The translations under genes were made by a program, and so were the position numbers. A DNA stretch of 34,960 nt, from the UHGV virus genome UHGV-0140617. One strand, written 5' to 3'. Below, in pieces: positions 2,866 to 34,910 of this stretch. The DNA is from a virus. Position 1 is the first letter of the stretch; each line of letters begins with the position of its first letter. The notes below the pieces were generated by a model that worked only from the letters and a program-made list of their open reading frames with translations, had not been told where the DNA came from and did not search any database.

Positions 2866-3575
2866 TACATCAAATCCTTATAACGCAGAATTTTGATGGT
2901 ACGGTCACGGTAATAACCACCGTAGGGAATACGCTGGCTTAGCTGGCCATACATGTGATGCAGTAGCATGTTGCCATCAAGCAAAATCCCGGCATGGTTC
3001 GGGACGGTGGACTGTACCTGCATGATAACCATGTCACCGGGCTGAGCTGGACCGTCGTACTCACGGAAACCGCATTCCTGCCAGTTGTCCATATAGAGGT
3101 TTTCACCCTGCTCCCACCAGTGCCGATCTACGCTGTAGTTGGGCAGTTCAATGCCGTGTTCGATGCGGAAATAGTCCATAATGAGAGACCAGCAGTCTGC
3201 ATGCCCGAGTACAAACTGGCGCCCTGTGAGGGGACGGTCTCCGCGAGGCATGACGGTGCGAATGTCGCCCTCAGGCCACGATGCAATAATCCAGGGCAGT
3301 TCCGTGGCATCACACATCAGCATGTCGAGTTCACTCGGCTGGGTTGTTGCCCCGTCGCCGGGGTGACTGTGGACGATCGCCACCACAGTTCCCTGCTCTT
3401 CGGCGGCCGCATAATCCTCAGGATTGAGTTCAAATTGCTCAGTCGGCGACTCAGCATTATTTTTGCAGGGGATGTATTTCTCCACCCGCCCCTTCTGAAT
3501 AACCACGCCACAGCACTCCTCGGGGAAGGATGCGGCGGCATGCGCCAGAATGGCGCTAACTGTTTTGTCGCGCAT
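2865..3575 (-). CDS. K: Tail assembly protein K (JAB/MPN plus NlpC/P60-like)
   Basis: 236 aa; HSHP metal-binding motif (AIVHSHPGD) and Cys/His peptidase-like C-terminal region typical of lambda gpK; gene order L-K-I. Confidence 0.8.
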   Translation of the reverse strand: MRDKTVSAILAHAAASFPEECCGVVIQKGRVEKYIPCKNNAESPTEQFELNPEDYAAAEEQGTVVAIVHSHPGDGATTQPSELDMLMCDATELPWIIASWPEGDIRTVMPRGDRPLTGRQFVLGHADCWSLIMDYFRIEHGIELPNYSVDRHWWEQGENLYMDNWQECGFREYDGPAQPGDMVIMQVQSTVPNHAGILLDGNMLLHHMYGQLSQRIPYGGYYRDRTIKILRYKDLM

Positions 3576-27398: not shown

Positions 27399-27683
27399 TT
27401 ATTCCGCAGATATGCAAACGAAGTCAGAACAGGCCGGGTTGGCGCTCTCCGTTCCTTCCCGGCCTTTTCTTTGCCTTGCGTTCTGCTGTTGTCGTCTGCC
27501 CAATAGCCCACTGTCGCGCACGGAAAAGACAATCAGCGAACATGCTTCCCTTCCGGCTGGACTGAGAGCATCGCCGGTAATAATCAACACCATGCTCTGC
27601 CCCCCCCTGGCGACTTCTGCCGGAAAACCTTCGCCAGCCAGCGCCTCGGTGATGTGCTTTTTGATGAATTCTTCCGGTGACAT
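27399..27683 (-). CDS. Hypothetical protein in cII position (reading frame uncertain because of G8 tract)
   Basis: ATG 27681-27683 lies 1 nt after the cro stop (coupled); contains a G8 homopolymer (plus C8 at 27600-27607); downstream sequence is low complexity. Confidence 0.35.
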   Translation of the reverse strand: MSPEEFIKKHITEALAGEGFPAEVARGGQSMVLIITGDALSPAGREACSLIVFSVRDSGLLGRRQQQNARQRKGREGTESANPACSDFVCISAE

Positions 27684-27684
27684 G

Positions 27685-27900
27685 TCAAGCCTTTACTGAT
27701 GGGTGAGGGAAAATTTCTTCGATAAACACCTTCCGGTCTGACGTACTCAAAGCGGATGCGATGAGATGGCATGTCTCAATATCTGGAACTCTCCGACCAG
27801 ATTCGTAGTGACAAATGGAGCTTTGTGTATGGCCTATGCTCTTCGCCAGCTCGCATTGAGTTAACCCACTGGCAATACGCATATTTTTAAGATTACTCAT
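27685..27900 (-). CDS. cro: Cro-like HTH regulator
   Basis: 71 aa XRE-type helix-turn-helix (ASGLTQCELAKSIGHTQSSICHYESGRR); divergent from the repressor gene across an operator region. Confidence 0.75.
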   Translation of the reverse strand: MSNLKNMRIASGLTQCELAKSIGHTQSSICHYESGRRVPDIETCHLIASALSTSDRKVFIEEIFPHPSVKA

Positions 27901-27924
27901 TTTAATCCCCCGTTACTCAAGGAG

Positions 27925-28005
27925 ATATTACACATTGTATTTGAAATCAGCAAGAAAATATTACATTATGTGCATTGAAACTTTATCACATACTGTAATA
28001 TTATG
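27925..28005. promoter_or_regulatory. Immunity operator/promoter region (OR-like) with divergent promoters
   Basis: ATATTACA at 27925-27932 and 27958-27965, inverted TGTAATAT at 27994-28001; minus-strand promoter TTGCTG-N17-TAATAT (plus 27948-27953 / 27925-27930) for cro; plus-strand TTGAAA (27975-27980) and TATTAT/TAATAT near 27996-28004 for cI. Confidence 0.55.
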
Positions 28006-28010
28006 AGCCT

Positions 28011-28670
28011 ATGAAAACAGAATGGTATGAACTGGCTAAAGCCAGAATGTCTGAAGTGGGGGTTACGCAGGCCCAACTTTCAGAGGAATTGGGTGTTACA
28101 CAAGGTGCTTTGAGCCACTGGCTTAACGGCAGGAGATCGGCTTCGCTTGCTGAAATAGGTTCGATTTTTCGAATCCTTGGCATTGTTGGTGCAACCCTCA
28201 ACATAGATGGTTCATTCACCATCGGACCAGAGCAATTCTCGGCACCTCCTAAACCTCATTATGAATATCCTGTTTTCTCTCACGTTCAGGCAGGTATGTT
28301 TTCTCCAGAGTTCAGAACCTTTACAGAACGCGATGCAGAAGGCTGGGTCAGTACAACCAAAAAAGCCAGTGAACATGCATTCTGGCTTGAGGTTGATGGA
28401 CACTCCATGACAGCCCCAACCGGCTCAAGACCAAGCTTCCCAGCCGGAATGCTCATTCTTGTTGACCCTGAAGAACCAGTTGATCCTGGAGATTTCTGTA
28501 TCGCCAGACTTGGCGGGGATGAATTCACTTTTAAGAAATTGATTAAAGATAGTGGACAGGTCTTTCTTCAGCCGTTAAACCCACAGTTTCCAATGATACC
28601 CTGCAACGAGCATTGCAGAGTCGTTGGCAAGGTGGTCGCATCACAATGGCCTGAAGAGACATTCGGATAA
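28011..28670 (+). CDS. cI: CI-like repressor (HTH plus S24 LexA-like peptidase domain)
   Basis: 219 aa; N-terminal HTH ([23 protein letters not shown]), Ala-Gly cleavage site (VQAGMF), catalytic Ser (VDGHSMT) and Lys (FKKL); no SD upstream, consistent with a leaderless transcript. Confidence 0.85.
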
Positions 28671-28716: not shown

Positions 28717-28798
28717 GTCTGAATATCAATACCACTAATTAAATACACTTTGAAATCAAACGCTTTCAATTAATAATCAAATTTTATTTCATTTTGTA

Positions 28799-29223: not shown

Positions 29224-29520
29224 ATGCAGATGAATATTACCGTCAAAAGTGAAGTCTTAAATAACAAGAGCCATTCAGTTAATCAGGATGACGACATTCT
29301 TTATATAAACAAGGCACACAAAACAGCAGAGTGCGCCAATAAATACGCGCATGAGCTACGTACAGAGTTTTTCCAGTTACTGATGCCAGCAATCACGCGT
29401 ACAGATGTGAAGGTAGCAGGAAGATTCACCTCGTTACTTAATGAGCTTTGCTTCATGACCCAAATGACCATGGAGAATTCATCCAAGGGGGGGGGCAATA
29501 ATGACGTTTCTGAAAGATAA
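29224..29520 (+). CDS. Hypothetical protein, apparently truncated at a G9 tract
   Basis: 98 aa as sequenced; with 8 G instead of 9 (29487-29495) the frame continues to TAA 29612-29614, overlapping the next ATG (TAATG). Confidence 0.45.
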   Translation: MQMNITVKSEVLNNKSHSVNQDDDILYINKAHKTAECANKYAHELRTEFFQLLMPAITRTDVKVAGRFTSLLNELCFMTQMTMENSSKGGGNNDVSER

Positions 29521-29613
29521 AGCAGCACACAATACTGCAAAACTTTTTGCCTCTTATGGAAATAGTTATCTGCATATTGCAAACCTTTTTCTGCGCAAGG
29601 CTTACGGGCGGTA

Positions 29614-29976
29614 ATGACAATGAAAAACAATACCATTGAAATTTATCGCCGCCGCGTTGCTATTGCGACATTAAACCGAATGAAGCGCAAGACAGGAGGT
29701 TATTGCCTCTCCGTAAATATGCCCGATAACAATATCCAGGTTATCGAGATTAACGAAGAATCAATGATGAAACTTTTGCTGCGCTTCGAAAAACAGGCTC
29801 GGACTGAATTCAACACAGAAGCGGAAACATTTCTTCGCCAGACGTATATGAAAAGCGTCGATATCAATGAACACACCGAATATCTGACCGAAACCGGAAA
29901 GATGATTGTTGACGAGATTTTTGCGGAATTAATTAAACACGCGAAAGAGAAATACGTATGTGGAGGAATTAACTGA
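29614..29976 (+). CDS. Hypothetical protein
   Basis: 120 aa; stop overlaps next ATG (TGATG). Confidence 0.5.
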   Translation: MTMKNNTIEIYRRRVAIATLNRMKRKTGGYCLSVNMPDNNIQVIEINEESMMKLLLRFEKQARTEFNTEAETFLRQTYMKSVDINEHTEYLTETGKMIVDEIFAELIKHAKEKYVCGGIN

Positions 29977-30205
29977 TGGCCTCACAACAAACAATTATTC
30001 ACGGAATGCAGACCCCCCCCCAGTCCTCAACGTGGATCTGCATGTGCTTCCGGATTTCACCGGACGCGTGGTTCTTTACATCGAAAAAGGGCGTGTGACA
30101 TGCGACCGCCGTCTGCTCGACGACGAACATATTTGCGCACTGGACACTTTTATCGAAATGGCTCGCGAAATGGAGCTACGTCTTGAGGAAATATCGAATG
30201 ACTGA
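29976..30205 (+). pseudogene. Hypothetical gene interrupted by frameshift at C9 tract
   Basis: ATG 29976 with SD GGAGG reads MASQQTIIHGMQTPP then shifts frame at C9 (30013-30021); the downstream frame (...VLNVDLHV...EEISND) ends ATGACTGA-coupled to the next gene; 10 C would restore one ORF of about 76 aa. Confidence 0.5.
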
Positions 30206-30620
30206 CAACCGTACCGTAAGCGCGATTGACCTCGCGTTACAGAAACACGATACGCCAGTTGGCCCTTTGTTCGTGGCAGTACGACACGGGCGCACAAAAA
30301 AATGTTTCACCCTCAACACTGCAATCCGTTATCTGGCGTTCTTCATGACTACCGAAGCTTTCAGTCGTTCCGGCTTCGAGCAGCGCTACCCGGATGTGCA
30401 GACCGTCTACCCTCTCAATCCAGAACTGAATTGTTGGCAACGAGGAGGCACAACAGTTGAGTACATCGGAGCCCACCAGCGCTGTATTCGACGTCTTCGC
30501 CGCATTCTGGCCATTAAGCGTGACATGCAGAAGTGGTGTGAGAAGTGGGACGCCATGCATGACCGCTTCGTTAAAGAGGTTGACGCACTACAGGCCAGTA
30601 AACCGGAGGGTATTCGATGA
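30198..30620 (+). CDS. Hypothetical protein
   Basis: 140 aa from ATG 30198 (MTDNRTV...); the track ORF starts earlier at TTG. Confidence 0.5.
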   Translation: MTDNRTVSAIDLALQKHDTPVGPLFVAVRHGRTKKCFTLNTAIRYLAFFMTTEAFSRSGFEQRYPDVQTVYPLNPELNCWQRGGTTVEYIGAHQRCIRRLRRILAIKRDMQKWCEKWDAMHDRFVKEVDALQASKPEGIR

Positions 30621-33596: not shown

Positions 33597-34910
33597 ATGG
33601 ATAAAATCACATATCCAACAGGCGTCGAAAACCACGGTGGCAGTCTGCGCATCTGGTTTAATTTTAAAGGTAAGCGCGTCAGGGAAAACCTCGGTGTCCC
33701 TGACACCGCTAAGAACAGGAAGATCGCCGGGGAACTGCGGGTGTCGGTATGCTTTGCCATCCGCACGGGAAGCTTTGATTATGCTGAACGGTTTCCAGAT
33801 TCACCTAACCTTAAAATTTTTGGGTTGGGCAAGAAAGAAATCACAGTGAAAGAACTCGAAGAGAAGTGGCTGGATCTGAAAAAGATGGAAATCAGCGCGA
33901 ACGCGCACAAACGGTACGAGTCGGTCGTGGCAGTTGTTGTACCGCTGATCGGGGCTACCCGACTAGTGACAGCGATTGAGAAAGAAGAGTTGCTGTACAT
34001 CAGGAAAGAGCTTTTGATGGGTTATCAGTGCGCGGCAAAGGGCAGGATCCCTGTTAAGGGCCGGAGCGCGGTCACCGTCAATTACTACATGACGACTATC
34101 GCCGGAATGTTCCAGTTCGCCGCCGATAATGGGTACATAAAGGCAAATCCCTTTGATGGAATAAAGCCATTAAAAAGGGCCAGGGTGGAGCCAGATCCGC
34201 TCAGCCGTGATGAATTCATCCGTCTGATAGATGCGTGCCGGCATCAGCAGACGAAAAACATGTGGTCACTGGCGGTGTACACAGGTGTTCGTCACGGAGA
34301 ACTGGTTTCCCTGGCATGGGAAGATATAGACCTTGAAGCGGGTATAATAACAATTCGCCGTAATTATACAAAACTGGGCGAGTTCACACTACCGAAAACG
34401 GACGCCAGTACGGATAGAGTGATACACCTCATTCAGCCAGCCATCGATGCGTTAAGGAATCAGATGGAAATGACCAGACTCGGGCAGCAGTATCACATCA
34501 ACGTGCAATTGCGTGAATATGGTCGAACAACGCAGCACAGCTGTACATTTGTCTTTAACCCTAAGATAGTCCGTCGAAGTAAGGATGTGGGGGTTATCTA
34601 CAAGGTTGATTCGTTTGGTGACTCGTGGGACGCAGGGTTAAAAAAGGCGGGGATCAGGCATCGAAAAGCTTACCAGTCGCGCCACACTTACGCGTGCTGG
34701 TCACTGGCCGCTGGCGCCAATCCAAGCTTTATAGCCAGTCAGATGGGGCACGCTAGTGCGCAAATGGTTTTCAATGTGTACGGCGCATGGATGGCTGACA
34801 GCAGCGCAGAGCAGATCGCAATGCTGAATCAGAAGCTGGCAGATTTTGCCCCATTGATGCCCCATAGCCACGATAACAGTACGGGAGGATTATTAAAATC
34901 AGTAAGTTAA
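33597..34910 (+). CDS. int: Tyrosine integrase (phage integrase family)
   Basis: 437 aa; C-terminal catalytic region with R...HxxR...Y pattern (AYQSRHTYACWSLAAG...GHASAQMVFNVYGAW); terminal gene of the prophage arm. Confidence 0.9.
   Translation: MDKITYPTGVENHGGSLRIWFNFKGKRVRENLGVPDTAKNRKIAGELRVSVCFAIRTGSFDYAERFPDSPNLKIFGLGKKEITVKELEEKWLDLKKMEISANAHKRYESVVAVVVPLIGATRLVTAIEKEELLYIRKELLMGYQCAAKGRIPVKGRSAVTVNYYMTTIAGMFQFAADNGYIKANPFDGIKPLKRARVEPDPLSRDEFIRLIDACRHQQTKNMWSLAVYTGVRHGELVSLAWEDIDLEAGIITIRRNYTKLGEFTLPKTDASTDRVIHLIQPAIDALRNQMEMTRLGQQYHINVQLREYGRTTQHSCTFVFNPKIVRRSKDVGVIYKVDSFGDSWDAGLKKAGIRHRKAYQSRHTYACWSLAAGANPSFIASQMGHASAQMVFNVYGAWMADSSAEQIAMLNQKLADFAPLMPHSHDNSTGGLLKSVS

What the first reader, a model, noticed from the sequence alone, without database searches (positions are those of the whole stretch)
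30013..30021. C9 homopolymer tract splits a translationally coupled early gene
A gene with a strong RBS starts at ATG 29976 and reads MASQQTIIHGMQTPP up to a run of nine C. The frame that continues past the tract (...VLNVDLHVLPDFTGRVV...EEISND) ends in an 8-nt overlap with the next gene start (ATGACTGA), a hallmark of a real coupled gene. With nine C the two halves are in different frames; ten C would fuse them. This is either a homopolymer sequencing error, a recent inactivating slip, or a slippage-based ON/OFF switch. G/C runs of this length are unusual in enterobacterial phage DNA.
Basis: seen in the sequence. Interest (0 to 1): 0.6.

Follow-up and report, generated by a model that had tools for sequence, protein, structure and literature searches.

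The report
Hypermutable poly-C tract splitting a prophage gene
A run of nine C's really does break a small, conserved early gene of a lambda-like prophage, and related prophages carry the same run at many lengths (about half out of frame), so it is a slippage-prone hot spot that repeatedly turns the gene off and on, not a sequencing error.

Summary
In detail: C9 at 30013-30021 separates ATG 29976 (40-aa truncated product) from a frame that runs to TGA 30205 and overlaps the next start.

- **The gene is real.** The frame-corrected 76-aa protein belongs to phage family phrog_340. Homologs are single 72-88-aa ORFs (most 76-84). The natural in-frame form is CAG ATC CCC CCC CCA (T+C9), so the window is one base short.
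- **It is not a sequencing error.** The identical CAGA+C9 allele occurs in three independent datasets. Sister contigs carry CAGAT+C8 or CAG+C10 in the same -1 register.
- **The tract is variable.** In about 40 distinct related contigs it is C6, C7, C8, C9, C10 or C13, and about 19 are out of frame. Only 1 of about 62 homologs without a long tract is disrupted. Prophages identical over 6 kb differ only in tract length.
- **The gene is still under selection.** Every OFF allele keeps the downstream frame open. pN/pS is 0.13. One -1 allele was repaired by a 7-nt duplication.
- **It is not alone.** The window's only two other long G/C runs (G9 at 29487, C8 at 27600) also lie in early genes and also vary among relatives.

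Best reading: a heritable OFF allele at a hypermutable homopolymer. This is a new member of the contingency-locus kind. An adaptive role is not shown.

The parts
30013..30021 (+). C9 homopolymer tract, the frameshift site. It sits in the -1 register relative to the in-frame T+C9 form of relatives.
   Evidence: sequence. (alignment with relatives: CAGAT+C9 is in frame, the window has CAGA+C9).
29976..30098 (+). 5' part of the phrog_340 gene as it reads now: ATG plus 12 native codons, the tract, then 25 out-of-frame codons to TGA. The product is a 40-aa truncated peptide.
   Evidence: The 40-aa product is not conserved (40 or more than 100 aa in other -1 alleles) and is not in the protein collection.
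30023..30205 (+). 3' part of the phrog_340 gene in the other frame (VLNVDLHVLPDFTGRVV…EEISND, then TGA). It is intact and conserved.
   Evidence: The fused protein hits phrog_340 at E=3.5e-23. pN/pS is 0.13.
29960..30205 (+). 81-aa ORF from GTG 29960. This is what gene callers annotate for -1 register alleles (MEELTDGLTTNNYSRNADPPPV…). It is probably not the real start.
   Evidence: Searches show this product called in many assemblies. The GTG lies inside the SD of ATG 29976.
29962..29966 (+). Shine-Dalgarno GGAGG for ATG 29976.
   Evidence: It is conserved in the close relatives.
29614..29976 (+). Upstream gene (120 aa, phrog_1737). Its stop overlaps ATG 29976 (TGATG).
30198..30620 (+). Downstream gene (140 aa, phrog_1886). 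Its ATG overlaps the stop of the split gene (ATGACTGA), and it has its own GAGGA 8 nt upstream.
28750..28777 (+). Promoter-like site (TTGAAA-16-AATAAT) after the cI terminator. It is the likely early-left promoter of the operon that holds the gene.
   Evidence: The repressor is at 28011-28670. No + strand terminator-like site lies between 28859 and 31300.
29487..29495 (+). Sister tract 2: G9 near the 3' end of ORF 29224-29520. It decides whether that ORF is fused to the conserved 37-aa ORF 29501-29614, which ends TAATG on the next gene. In the window the two are split.
   Evidence: G runs of 6 to 11 occur in relatives: 13 sequences are fused, and 19 are split in two other registers.
27600..27607 (-). 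Sister tract 3: G8 on the minus strand inside the gene that follows cro (ORF 27399-27683, family phrog_4439). It is out of frame in the window.
   Evidence: As read, the protein matches phrog_4439 only over positions 1-28. Frame-corrected, it matches positions 1-74 at E=2e-31.

Best explanation
The C9 run is a hypermutable homopolymer inside a real 76-aa early-left-operon gene (family phrog_340, function unknown) of a lambdoid prophage of the Citrobacter/Enterobacter/Salmonella group.

Mechanism: strand slippage during DNA replication adds or removes C's. The gene is therefore repeatedly thrown between the in-frame state (T+C6, C9, C12, C15) and the two out-of-frame registers.

The window carries a genuine, inherited out-of-frame (-1) allele.
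- Translation from ATG 29976 ends after 40 codons at 30098.
- The conserved C-terminal 61 codons are not made from that start.
- The translational coupling to the next gene (stop/start overlap at 30198-30205) is lost.

The window's particular form (CAGA+C9 instead of CAGAT+C8) arose by a T-to-C change at the 5' edge of the run. A sister lineage has gone one step further (CAG+C10). This is the pattern expected from misalignment ('dislocation') mutagenesis at homopolymer borders.

What is shown: the tract, the split, the conserved single-ORF form, the tract-length polymorphism among near-identical prophages, the inheritance of this allele, and purifying selection on the downstream frame.

What is inferred: replication slippage as the cause, reversibility of individual alleles, the polar effect on the next gene, and the edge-substitution mechanism.
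For: - **Single-ORF homologs.** Homologs are intact ORFs of 72-88 aa, most 76-84. The fused protein hits phrog_340 at E=3.5e-23.
- **Variable tract.** In about 40 distinct contigs found by tblastn or DNA pattern, the run after CAGAT is C6, 7, 8, 9, 10 or 13, and about 19 are out of frame. Protein records add C5, C11/12 and C15.
- **Disruption tracks the tract.** In the set, 16 of 30 loci with a run of C6 or more are disrupted. Among homologs with C5 or less, only 1 of about 62 is.
- **Tract changes outpace substitutions.** L030 (C9), L071 (C10) and L127 (C10) are identical over up to 6 kb of flank. L050 and L028 differ at two tracts and by one substitution in 3 kb. Groups with identical 300-nt flanks hold several tract lengths.
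- **The allele is inherited.** The window is 100% identical over 6.4 kb to ENA ERZ27234557. The same CAGA+C9 allele is in ERR1015327 and SRR36128827. CAG+C10 and CAGAT+C8 sit on the same local haplotype.
- **The gene is under selection.** All out-of-frame alleles keep the downstream frame open. pN/pS is 0.13 with pS 0.33 over 29 haplotypes. A C8 allele was repaired by a 7-nt tandem duplication in three contigs with diverged flanks.
- **Sister tracts.** The two other long G/C runs in the window also vary in relatives.
Against: - Within-population heterogeneity and switching rates were not measured, so reversibility is inferred from comparisons between genomes.
- No in-frame revertant of the window's own sub-lineage (Thr-Pro-Pro-Pro or Gln-Pro4 forms) exists in the 15-billion-protein collection.
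- One -1 allele is nearly fixed in an Enterobacter lineage: 114 contigs, against 1 with C9 and 1 with C6. At C8, therefore, the consensus state is stable on epidemiological time scales.
- Counts are not phylogenetically independent, and some contigs may be the same strain deposited twice.
- Sequencing platforms of the compared assemblies are unknown.
Confidence: 0.8

Rival explanations
1. Sequencing or assembly error: the true sequence is in frame and the homopolymer was miscounted.
For: Homopolymers are the classical site of indel errors. All three long G/C tracts of the window are in a disrupting state.
Against: - The identical allele, and identical lengths at all three tracts, occur in independent datasets: a MEGAHIT metagenome contig and a Logan assembly of another run. 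A third run agrees at this tract.
- The difference from relatives is a missing or changed T at the tract edge, not a simple C miscount.
- A compensated -1 allele (C8 plus a 7-nt duplication) proves that -1 alleles exist in nature.
- Near-identical loci show no indels at A/T runs.
Confidence: 0.03
2. Recoding: the out-of-frame allele still yields full-length protein. Either the ribosome slips -1 on C_CCC_CCC at the stalling Pro-Pro-Pro codons, or RNA polymerase adds a C. The tract would then tune the amount of protein rather than switch it off.
For: - The run formally fits the X_XXY_YYZ pattern. Any -1 slip inside it restores …TPPPVLNV….
- tRNA-Pro slippage on CCC-C is a known phenomenon (own knowledge).
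- Out-of-frame alleles are very common, yet the downstream frame stays under purifying selection.
Against: - There is no stimulatory RNA structure. Folding of 30005-30110 gives z=-0.56, and the only hairpin starts 27 nt downstream. Rfam gives no match.
- The out-of-frame arrangement is not conserved. Both registers are about equally common, and all homologs without a tract are single ORFs.
- Transcriptome-wide data found all slippage insertions in homopolymeric runs to be in A/T runs, none in G/C runs (PMC5574713).
- A second-site duplication that restores the frame would not be selected if the frameshift were harmless.
Confidence: 0.08
3. Alternative start: in -1 alleles the whole downstream frame is open from GTG 29960. 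An 81-aa protein with a different N-terminus would be made, and the tract would swap N-termini instead of inactivating the gene.
For: - The frame is open from GTG 29960 to 30205.
- Gene callers annotate this form in about 190 contigs.
- -1 alleles persist in large lineages.
Against: - The GTG lies inside the GGAGG that serves ATG 29976. It has only a weak AAGAG 10 nt upstream, and it sits 14 nt before the upstream gene's stop.
- Seventeen open codons is not significant.
- In the unbiased DNA sample the +1 register, which has no such start in most haplotypes, is as frequent as the -1 register.
Confidence: 0.05
4. Ordinary one-off pseudogene in a decaying prophage, with nothing special about the tract.
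For: Two or three early genes in the window are disrupted. No revertant of this sub-lineage was found.
Against: - Disruption recurs many times independently at exactly this tract, in both directions, on at least six haplotypes.
- Homologs without a tract are almost never disrupted.
- There are no secondary lesions downstream.
- The rest of the early and late regions of the window keep long ORFs.
Confidence: 0.04

Closest known systems
Simple-sequence-repeat contingency loci (phase-variable genes) of Neisseria, Haemophilus, Campylobacter and Bordetella, for example poly-G/C tracts inside ORFs (PMC5084427 and PMC1891110, listed; own knowledge)
   Same: A G/C homopolymer of 8-13 nt lies near the 5' end of an ORF. 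Length differs between otherwise identical genomes. Changes of one base toggle the reading frame. Several such tracts occur in one genetic element.
   Different: The host group (Enterobacteriaceae) is not known for homopolymer-based phase variation. The gene is a prophage early gene, repressed in the lysogen, not a surface or restriction-modification gene. Switching rate and any phenotype are unmeasured.
Phage contingency loci in T2/T4 and other virulent phages (Gomez, Barrick and Waters, bioRxiv 2025, PMC12633550)
   Same: Homopolymer runs in phage genes give reversible frameshifts by polymerase slippage and create heterogeneous progeny.
   Different: Those are A runs of 6-9 in virulent phages, shown by experiment and read-level variation. 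Here the runs are G/C runs of 8-13 in a temperate prophage, shown by natural allele diversity across assemblies.
Hypermutable poly-G tracts of Campylobacter phages (Sørensen et al. 2021, own knowledge; papers on the topic listed)
   Same: G/C homopolymers in phage ORFs with variable length create ON/OFF subpopulations.
   Different: Those tracts sit in receptor-binding or structural genes of virulent phages whose host itself uses poly-G switches. Here they sit in early accessory genes next to the immunity region.
Programmed -1 frameshifting (lambda G/GT tail chaperone) and programmed transcriptional slippage (IS elements, Shigella mxiE; PMC1088944 and PMC5009743, listed)
   Same: A slippery run joins two overlapping frames.
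   Different: In those systems the out-of-frame layout is conserved in all relatives, and the run is A/T-rich or has a stimulator. Here relatives are mostly single ORFs, the layout varies, and no stimulator is present.

Membership tests
SSR contingency locus (slipped-strand phase variation) | Uninterrupted mononucleotide tract of hypermutable length (about 7 or more G/C) within the ORF or promoter | tested here: met
   C9 at 30013-30021, 13 codons into the ORF.
SSR contingency locus (slipped-strand phase variation) | Tract length differs among closely related genomes whose flanks are otherwise identical | tested here: met
   L030 has C9, while L071 and L127 have C10, with 0 differences in up to 6 kb. 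Groups with identical flanks hold several lengths. Six lengths (6, 7, 8, 9, 10, 15) occur on one protein haplotype.
SSR contingency locus (slipped-strand phase variation) | Both in-frame (ON) and out-of-frame (OFF) lengths occur, and the coding potential is otherwise intact | tested here: met
   About 21 contigs are ON and about 19 are OFF. All OFF alleles keep the downstream frame open. pN/pS is 0.13.
SSR contingency locus (slipped-strand phase variation) | High-frequency, reversible switching within a clonal population | not testable with these tools
   Only consensus assemblies are available. One C8 allele is the consensus in 114 contigs, against 1+1 in-frame variants. No revertant of the window sub-lineage was found.
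SSR contingency locus (slipped-strand phase variation) | The expression state changes a selectable phenotype | not testable with these tools
   Function is unknown: phrog_340 is 'unknown function', Pfam gives no hit, no PDB relative was found, and the AF2 model has pLDDT 55.
Programmed -1 ribosomal frameshift site | Slippery heptamer X_XXY_YYZ in the zero frame | tested here: met
   C_CCC_CCC is present in frame. It is met only formally, and C-only heptamers are not established efficient sites (own knowledge).
Programmed -1 ribosomal frameshift site | Stimulatory structure 5-9 nt downstream, or an upstream SD-like element | tested here: not met
   Fold of 30005-30110: z=-0.56, and 52 of 200 shuffles fold as well. 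The hairpin starts 27 nt after the run. No Rfam hit.
Programmed -1 ribosomal frameshift site | The two-frame arrangement is conserved among homologs | tested here: not met
   Homologs without a long tract are single ORFs (about 61 of 62). Tract-bearing relatives are a mix of all three registers.
Programmed transcriptional slippage site | Run of 9 or more A or T on which RNA polymerase slips, with a conserved out-of-frame layout | tested here: not met
   The run is C. All slippage insertions found within homopolymeric runs in E. coli and Buchnera transcriptomes were in A/T runs (PMC5574713). The layout is not conserved.
phrog_340 (phage protein family of unknown function) | Significant full-length match to the family profile | tested here: met
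   The frame-corrected 76-aa protein matches with residues 8-74 on profile positions 4-70 of 85, E=3.5e-23. 316 homologs have E of 1e-5 or better.
Decaying pseudogene | Additional disabling lesions or relaxed constraint besides the first frameshift | tested here: not met
   No stop or indel occurs in the downstream frame in the window or in any OFF allele. The local block 29500-30600 is identical in sister contigs except at the tract edge.

The most novel reading that the evidence does not exclude
The C9 run would be one of at least three independently varying G/C homopolymer switches placed in early genes on both sides of the immunity region. These are the gene after cro, two early-left genes here, and further variable tracts in relatives. 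Together they would form an evolved multi-locus contingency ('phasotype') system of a family of enterobacterial temperate phages. Such a system would make induced progeny or lysogens heterogeneous for early accessory functions, as a bet-hedging strategy. It would be maintained over substantial divergence (pS about 0.3) despite its cost.
Probability: 0.3. Interest if true: 0.75.

Novelty: new member of a known kind. Interest (0 to 1): 0.55.

Why it matters
Homopolymer-driven ON/OFF variation is textbook biology for Neisseria, Haemophilus and Campylobacter. It is hardly documented in Enterobacteriaceae, and it has only just been proposed for phages, using A runs in virulent T-even phages.

Here natural sequence diversity shows long G/C runs in early genes of temperate enterobacterial phages that change length far faster than the surrounding DNA mutates.

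- **For annotation:** about half of the copies of this gene in public genomes are miscalled, as GTG-start 81/88-aa proteins or as truncated ORFs.
- **For phage biology:** it offers a tractable system of three tracts around the immunity region. It can test whether temperate phages use contingency loci, and what the unknown families phrog_340 and phrog_4439 do.

Tried and rejected
- **Function of the protein: nothing found.** Pfam gave no hit. A PDB profile search gave no hit at E of 1 or better. The AlphaFold model from 45 homologs had pLDDT 55 and pTM 0.30, too poor for a fold search, so none was run. Cultured-phage records carry only 'hypothetical protein' annotations.
- **Recoding signals: none found.** No RNA structure was detected and Rfam gave no family.
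- **Revertants of the window's own sub-lineage: none found.** I looked up A+C10, A+C7, CAG+C11 and CAG+C8 forms by exact protein match, and none is in the collection.
- **Is a homopolymer needed to encode Pro-Pro-Pro? No.** A Salmonella clade uses CCA CCA CCA.
- **Literature:** searches for homopolymer phase variation in lambdoid or enterobacterial prophages found no direct precedent.
- **Technical notes.** The NJ tree of flanks is confounded by mosaic recombination, so I relied on groups with identical flanks instead.

Full report
**1. The observation.**
The window reads …GGAATGCAGA-CCCCCCCCC-AGTCCTCAACGTGG…, with nine C's at exactly 30013-30021.

Two ORFs meet at the run:
- An ORF with a good Shine-Dalgarno (GGAGG 29962-29966, 9 nt upstream) starts at ATG 29976. 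Its ATG overlaps the stop of the preceding 120-aa gene (TGATG). It reads MASQQTIIHGMQTPP into the run and then runs out of frame to a stop at 30098, giving 40 aa.
- The other frame is open through the run and encodes …PPPVLNVDLHVLPDFTGRVV…EEISND. It ends at TGA 30203-30205, inside ATGACTGA, where the next gene starts at 30198.

A run of this kind is also not what the composition of the window predicts. The expectation is 0.11 C runs and 0.03 G runs of 9 or more per window. The only three G/C runs of 8 or more all lie within 2.4 kb. Everywhere else C runs stop at 5 and G runs at 6.

**2. Context.**
The window is a lambdoid prophage.
- Late genes and replication genes lie on the minus strand.
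- A cro-like HTH gene is at 27685-27900 on the minus strand.
- An S24/HTH CI-type repressor is at 28011-28670 on the plus strand, followed by a strong terminator-like hairpin.
- A promoter-like site lies at 28750-28777.
- An uninterrupted plus-strand string of small genes then runs to the integrase at 33597-34910.

The split gene is the fifth reading frame of this early-left operon. Its neighbours are phrog_1737 and phrog_1886, both of unknown function.

**3. The gene is real and normally a single ORF.**
- Fels-1 (STM0898.2n, 78 aa) and an E. coli prophage (WP_088902160, 83 aa) have one ORF here.
- The frame-corrected window protein hits phrog_340 at E=3.5e-23.
- A search of the protein collection returned 316 relatives, mostly Citrobacter, Salmonella and Enterobacter 'hypothetical proteins' of 72-88 aa.
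- The conserved motif is I-P-x-P-V-L-N-V-D-L-H, where x is R, T, S, L, I or P.

In the close clade the sequence is CAG ATC CCC CCC CCA GTC, that is T followed by C9, in frame. The window has CAGA+C9 and is one base shorter.

**4. The tract is hypervariable in relatives.**
I collected loci three ways: by tblastn-confirmed scans of species-representative genomes and IMG/VR, by a DNA pattern in IMG/VR, and by the same pattern in metagenome contigs.
- After removing the same contig fetched twice, about 40 distinct contigs carry an uninterrupted run. Its length is C6, C7, C8, C9, C10 or C13.
- About 21 are in frame: C6, C9, or a compensated allele. About 19 are out of frame, in both registers at similar numbers.
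- In the set, 16 of 30 loci with a run of C6 or more are disrupted. Among homologs whose run is interrupted (C5 or less), only one real case in about 62 is disrupted (L082, itself a C4-to-C5 change).
- Protein records add lengths equivalent to C5, C11/12 and C15.

The changes are fast relative to point substitution.
- L030 (C9), L071 (C10) and L127 (C10) are identical over up to 6 kb.
- L050 and L028 differ at two homopolymers and at a single substitution in 3 kb.
- Groups with identical 300-nt flanks hold more than one tract length.
- Each of at least six N-terminal haplotypes shows several lengths.

**5. The gene stays under selection.**
- Every out-of-frame allele keeps the downstream frame open to its normal stop.
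- Over 29 distinct haplotypes of the 47 codons after the run, pN/pS is 0.13 at pS 0.33. The tract-bearing gene has therefore been kept functional over considerable divergence.
- Three contigs with diverged flanks carry C8 plus a 7-nt tandem duplication (CCTCAAC) just downstream. The net change is +6 nt, which restores the frame (IPPQSSTLNVDLH). This shows that -1 alleles are real, and that restoring the downstream frame is favoured.
- A homopolymer is not needed to encode Pro-Pro-Pro. A Salmonella clade uses CCA CCA CCA.

**6. The window's own allele.**
- The 81-aa product that gene callers derive from this allele (GTG 29960 start) is on record in 17 contigs.
- At the DNA level, the window is 100% identical over 6.4 kb to an ENA metagenome contig (ERZ27234557).
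- The same CAGA+C9 occurs in Logan assemblies of ERR1015327 and SRR36128827. The flanks there differ only in mosaic blocks.
- On the same local haplotype, other samples carry CAGAT+C8 or CAG+C10. All have the same total length and the same -1 register.

Sequencing error is therefore excluded for practical purposes.

Two successive base changes to C occur at the 5' edge of the run (T30013-equivalent to C, then A30012 to C), in a 1.1-kb block that is otherwise identical. This is what misalignment ('dislocation') mutagenesis at homopolymer borders produces (inference, own knowledge).

No in-frame derivative of this sub-lineage is in the protein collection. The in-frame T+C9 form of the same haplotype is present in 17 Salmonella contigs (P0125).

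In one Enterobacter haplotype the -1 (C8) allele is in 114 contigs, against one C9 and one C6. So consensus states can be stable for long periods.

**7. Mechanism and rivals.**
The most economical explanation is replication slippage at a hypermutable homopolymer. It produces heritable frameshift alleles that are purged, reverted or compensated over time. The window holds an OFF allele.

The rivals fare as follows:
- **Programmed ribosomal frameshifting: not supported.** The run formally fits C_CCC_CCC. However, there is no stimulatory structure (z=-0.56), no Rfam match, and the two-frame layout is not conserved.
- **Transcriptional slippage: unlikely.** In E. coli and Buchnera transcriptomes, all insertions found within homopolymeric runs were in A/T runs (PMC5574713).
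- **Low-level rescue by tRNA-Pro slippage at the stalling PPP codons:** this cannot be excluded by computation.
- **Initiation at GTG 29960:** the GTG lies inside the SD of the real start, so this is improbable.

Whether the tract is an evolved switch or a tolerated hot spot is open.
- For an evolved switch: the tract persists across diverged haplotypes although a single synonymous change would stabilise it, the in-frame share exceeds one third, and there are sister tracts.
- Against: OFF alleles are fixed in some lineages, stable interrupted variants are common (for example IHPQV, 67 contigs for P0012 alone), and the genes are repressed in the lysogen, so OFF alleles may simply accumulate neutrally between rounds of lytic growth.

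**8. Comparison with known systems.**
It works like the simple-sequence contingency loci of Neisseria, Haemophilus, Campylobacter and Bordetella. It also resembles the phage contingency loci recently described for T-even phages (PMC12633550) and the Campylobacter phage poly-G tracts (own knowledge).

The sequence-level criteria of that class are met: the tract, the polymorphism on identical backgrounds, and both states with intact coding potential. The population-level criteria, switching rate and phenotype, could not be tested.

Literature searches found no description of such tracts in enterobacterial temperate phages.

I therefore file it as a new member of a known kind, with moderate interest. 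Interest would rise if the multi-tract arrangement proves to be a selected system.

Noticed in passing
window 27600-27607 (C8 on + strand, G8 on - strand), in ORF 27399-27683 (-): The gene just downstream of cro (family phrog_4439) is also frameshifted at a homopolymer. As read, it matches the family profile only over positions 1-28. Joined to the other frame after the run, it matches positions 1-74 at E=2e-31. Close relatives have G7, G8 or G10 (products of 32, 94 and 33 aa), so the tract varies between sister contigs of the window's own lineage.
   Followed up: partly
window 29487-29495 (G9), ORFs 29224-29520 and 29501-29614: A compound A-run/G-run decides whether a roughly 100-aa ORF is fused to a highly conserved 37-aa ORF (MTFLKDKAAH…RKAYGR), whose stop overlaps the next gene's ATG (TAATG). 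Among 32 distinct relatives the G run is 6-11. Thirteen are fused, and 19 are split in two other registers. The G run could also act as the Shine-Dalgarno for the 37-aa ORF. Which state is functional is unresolved.
   Followed up: partly
related loci, e.g. L056:154, L106:2250, L107:3990, L121:5820; L073:2052, L090:2053, L067:524, L134:5379; L002:34, L035:1356: Relatives carry at least three further families of G/C runs of 8-11 nt whose length differs between loci (contexts gtcaactccg[ag]ccaC(n)tgacacacc, aaaaggcagttcagC(n)atcgggaat, tgcccaacatatagC(n)ttt). Long, variable G/C homopolymers seem to be a general trait of this prophage group.
   Followed up: no
window 30012-30013 versus L138-L150: The 5' border of the run changes by substitution towards C (AT+C8, then A+C9, then C10) while total length stays constant, in a block with no other differences. 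This looks like misalignment-mediated (dislocation) substitution that lengthens the homopolymer.
   Followed up: partly
window 29586 (T5 run) versus L138/L140: Relatives L138 and L140 lack one T here. Their gene calls then show a 139-aa protein, the tail of the 37-aa ORF fused to the 120-aa phrog_1737 gene. This is another small-run indel that rearranges gene boundaries in the same operon.
   Followed up: no
L002 (E. coli NZ_LR536431.1) 1054-2034 and 3148-3318: The E. coli relative has an IS5 transposase inserted upstream and a 'ParE family toxin-like' ORF between the phrog_340 gene and the next gene. The next gene there is annotated as frameshifted. This shows the mosaic and partly decayed state of this operon in some hosts.
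   Followed up: no
public annotations of this gene (P0049-P0051, P0055, P0084, P0092, P0094, P0121-P0126, P0135, P0140, P0141): Out-of-frame alleles are annotated in public records as normal proteins with artificial N-termini (MEELTD…, MECRS…, MDLHV…), for example in 114 Enterobacter contigs. The frameshift is therefore invisible in protein databases.
   Followed up: partly
window 27880-27978 (-): There is a weak sub-threshold Rfam match to the enterobacterial sRNA STnc550 (20.3 bits against a gathering score of 48, E=0.06) in the cro/cI intergenic-operator region. It is probably chance.
   Followed up: no
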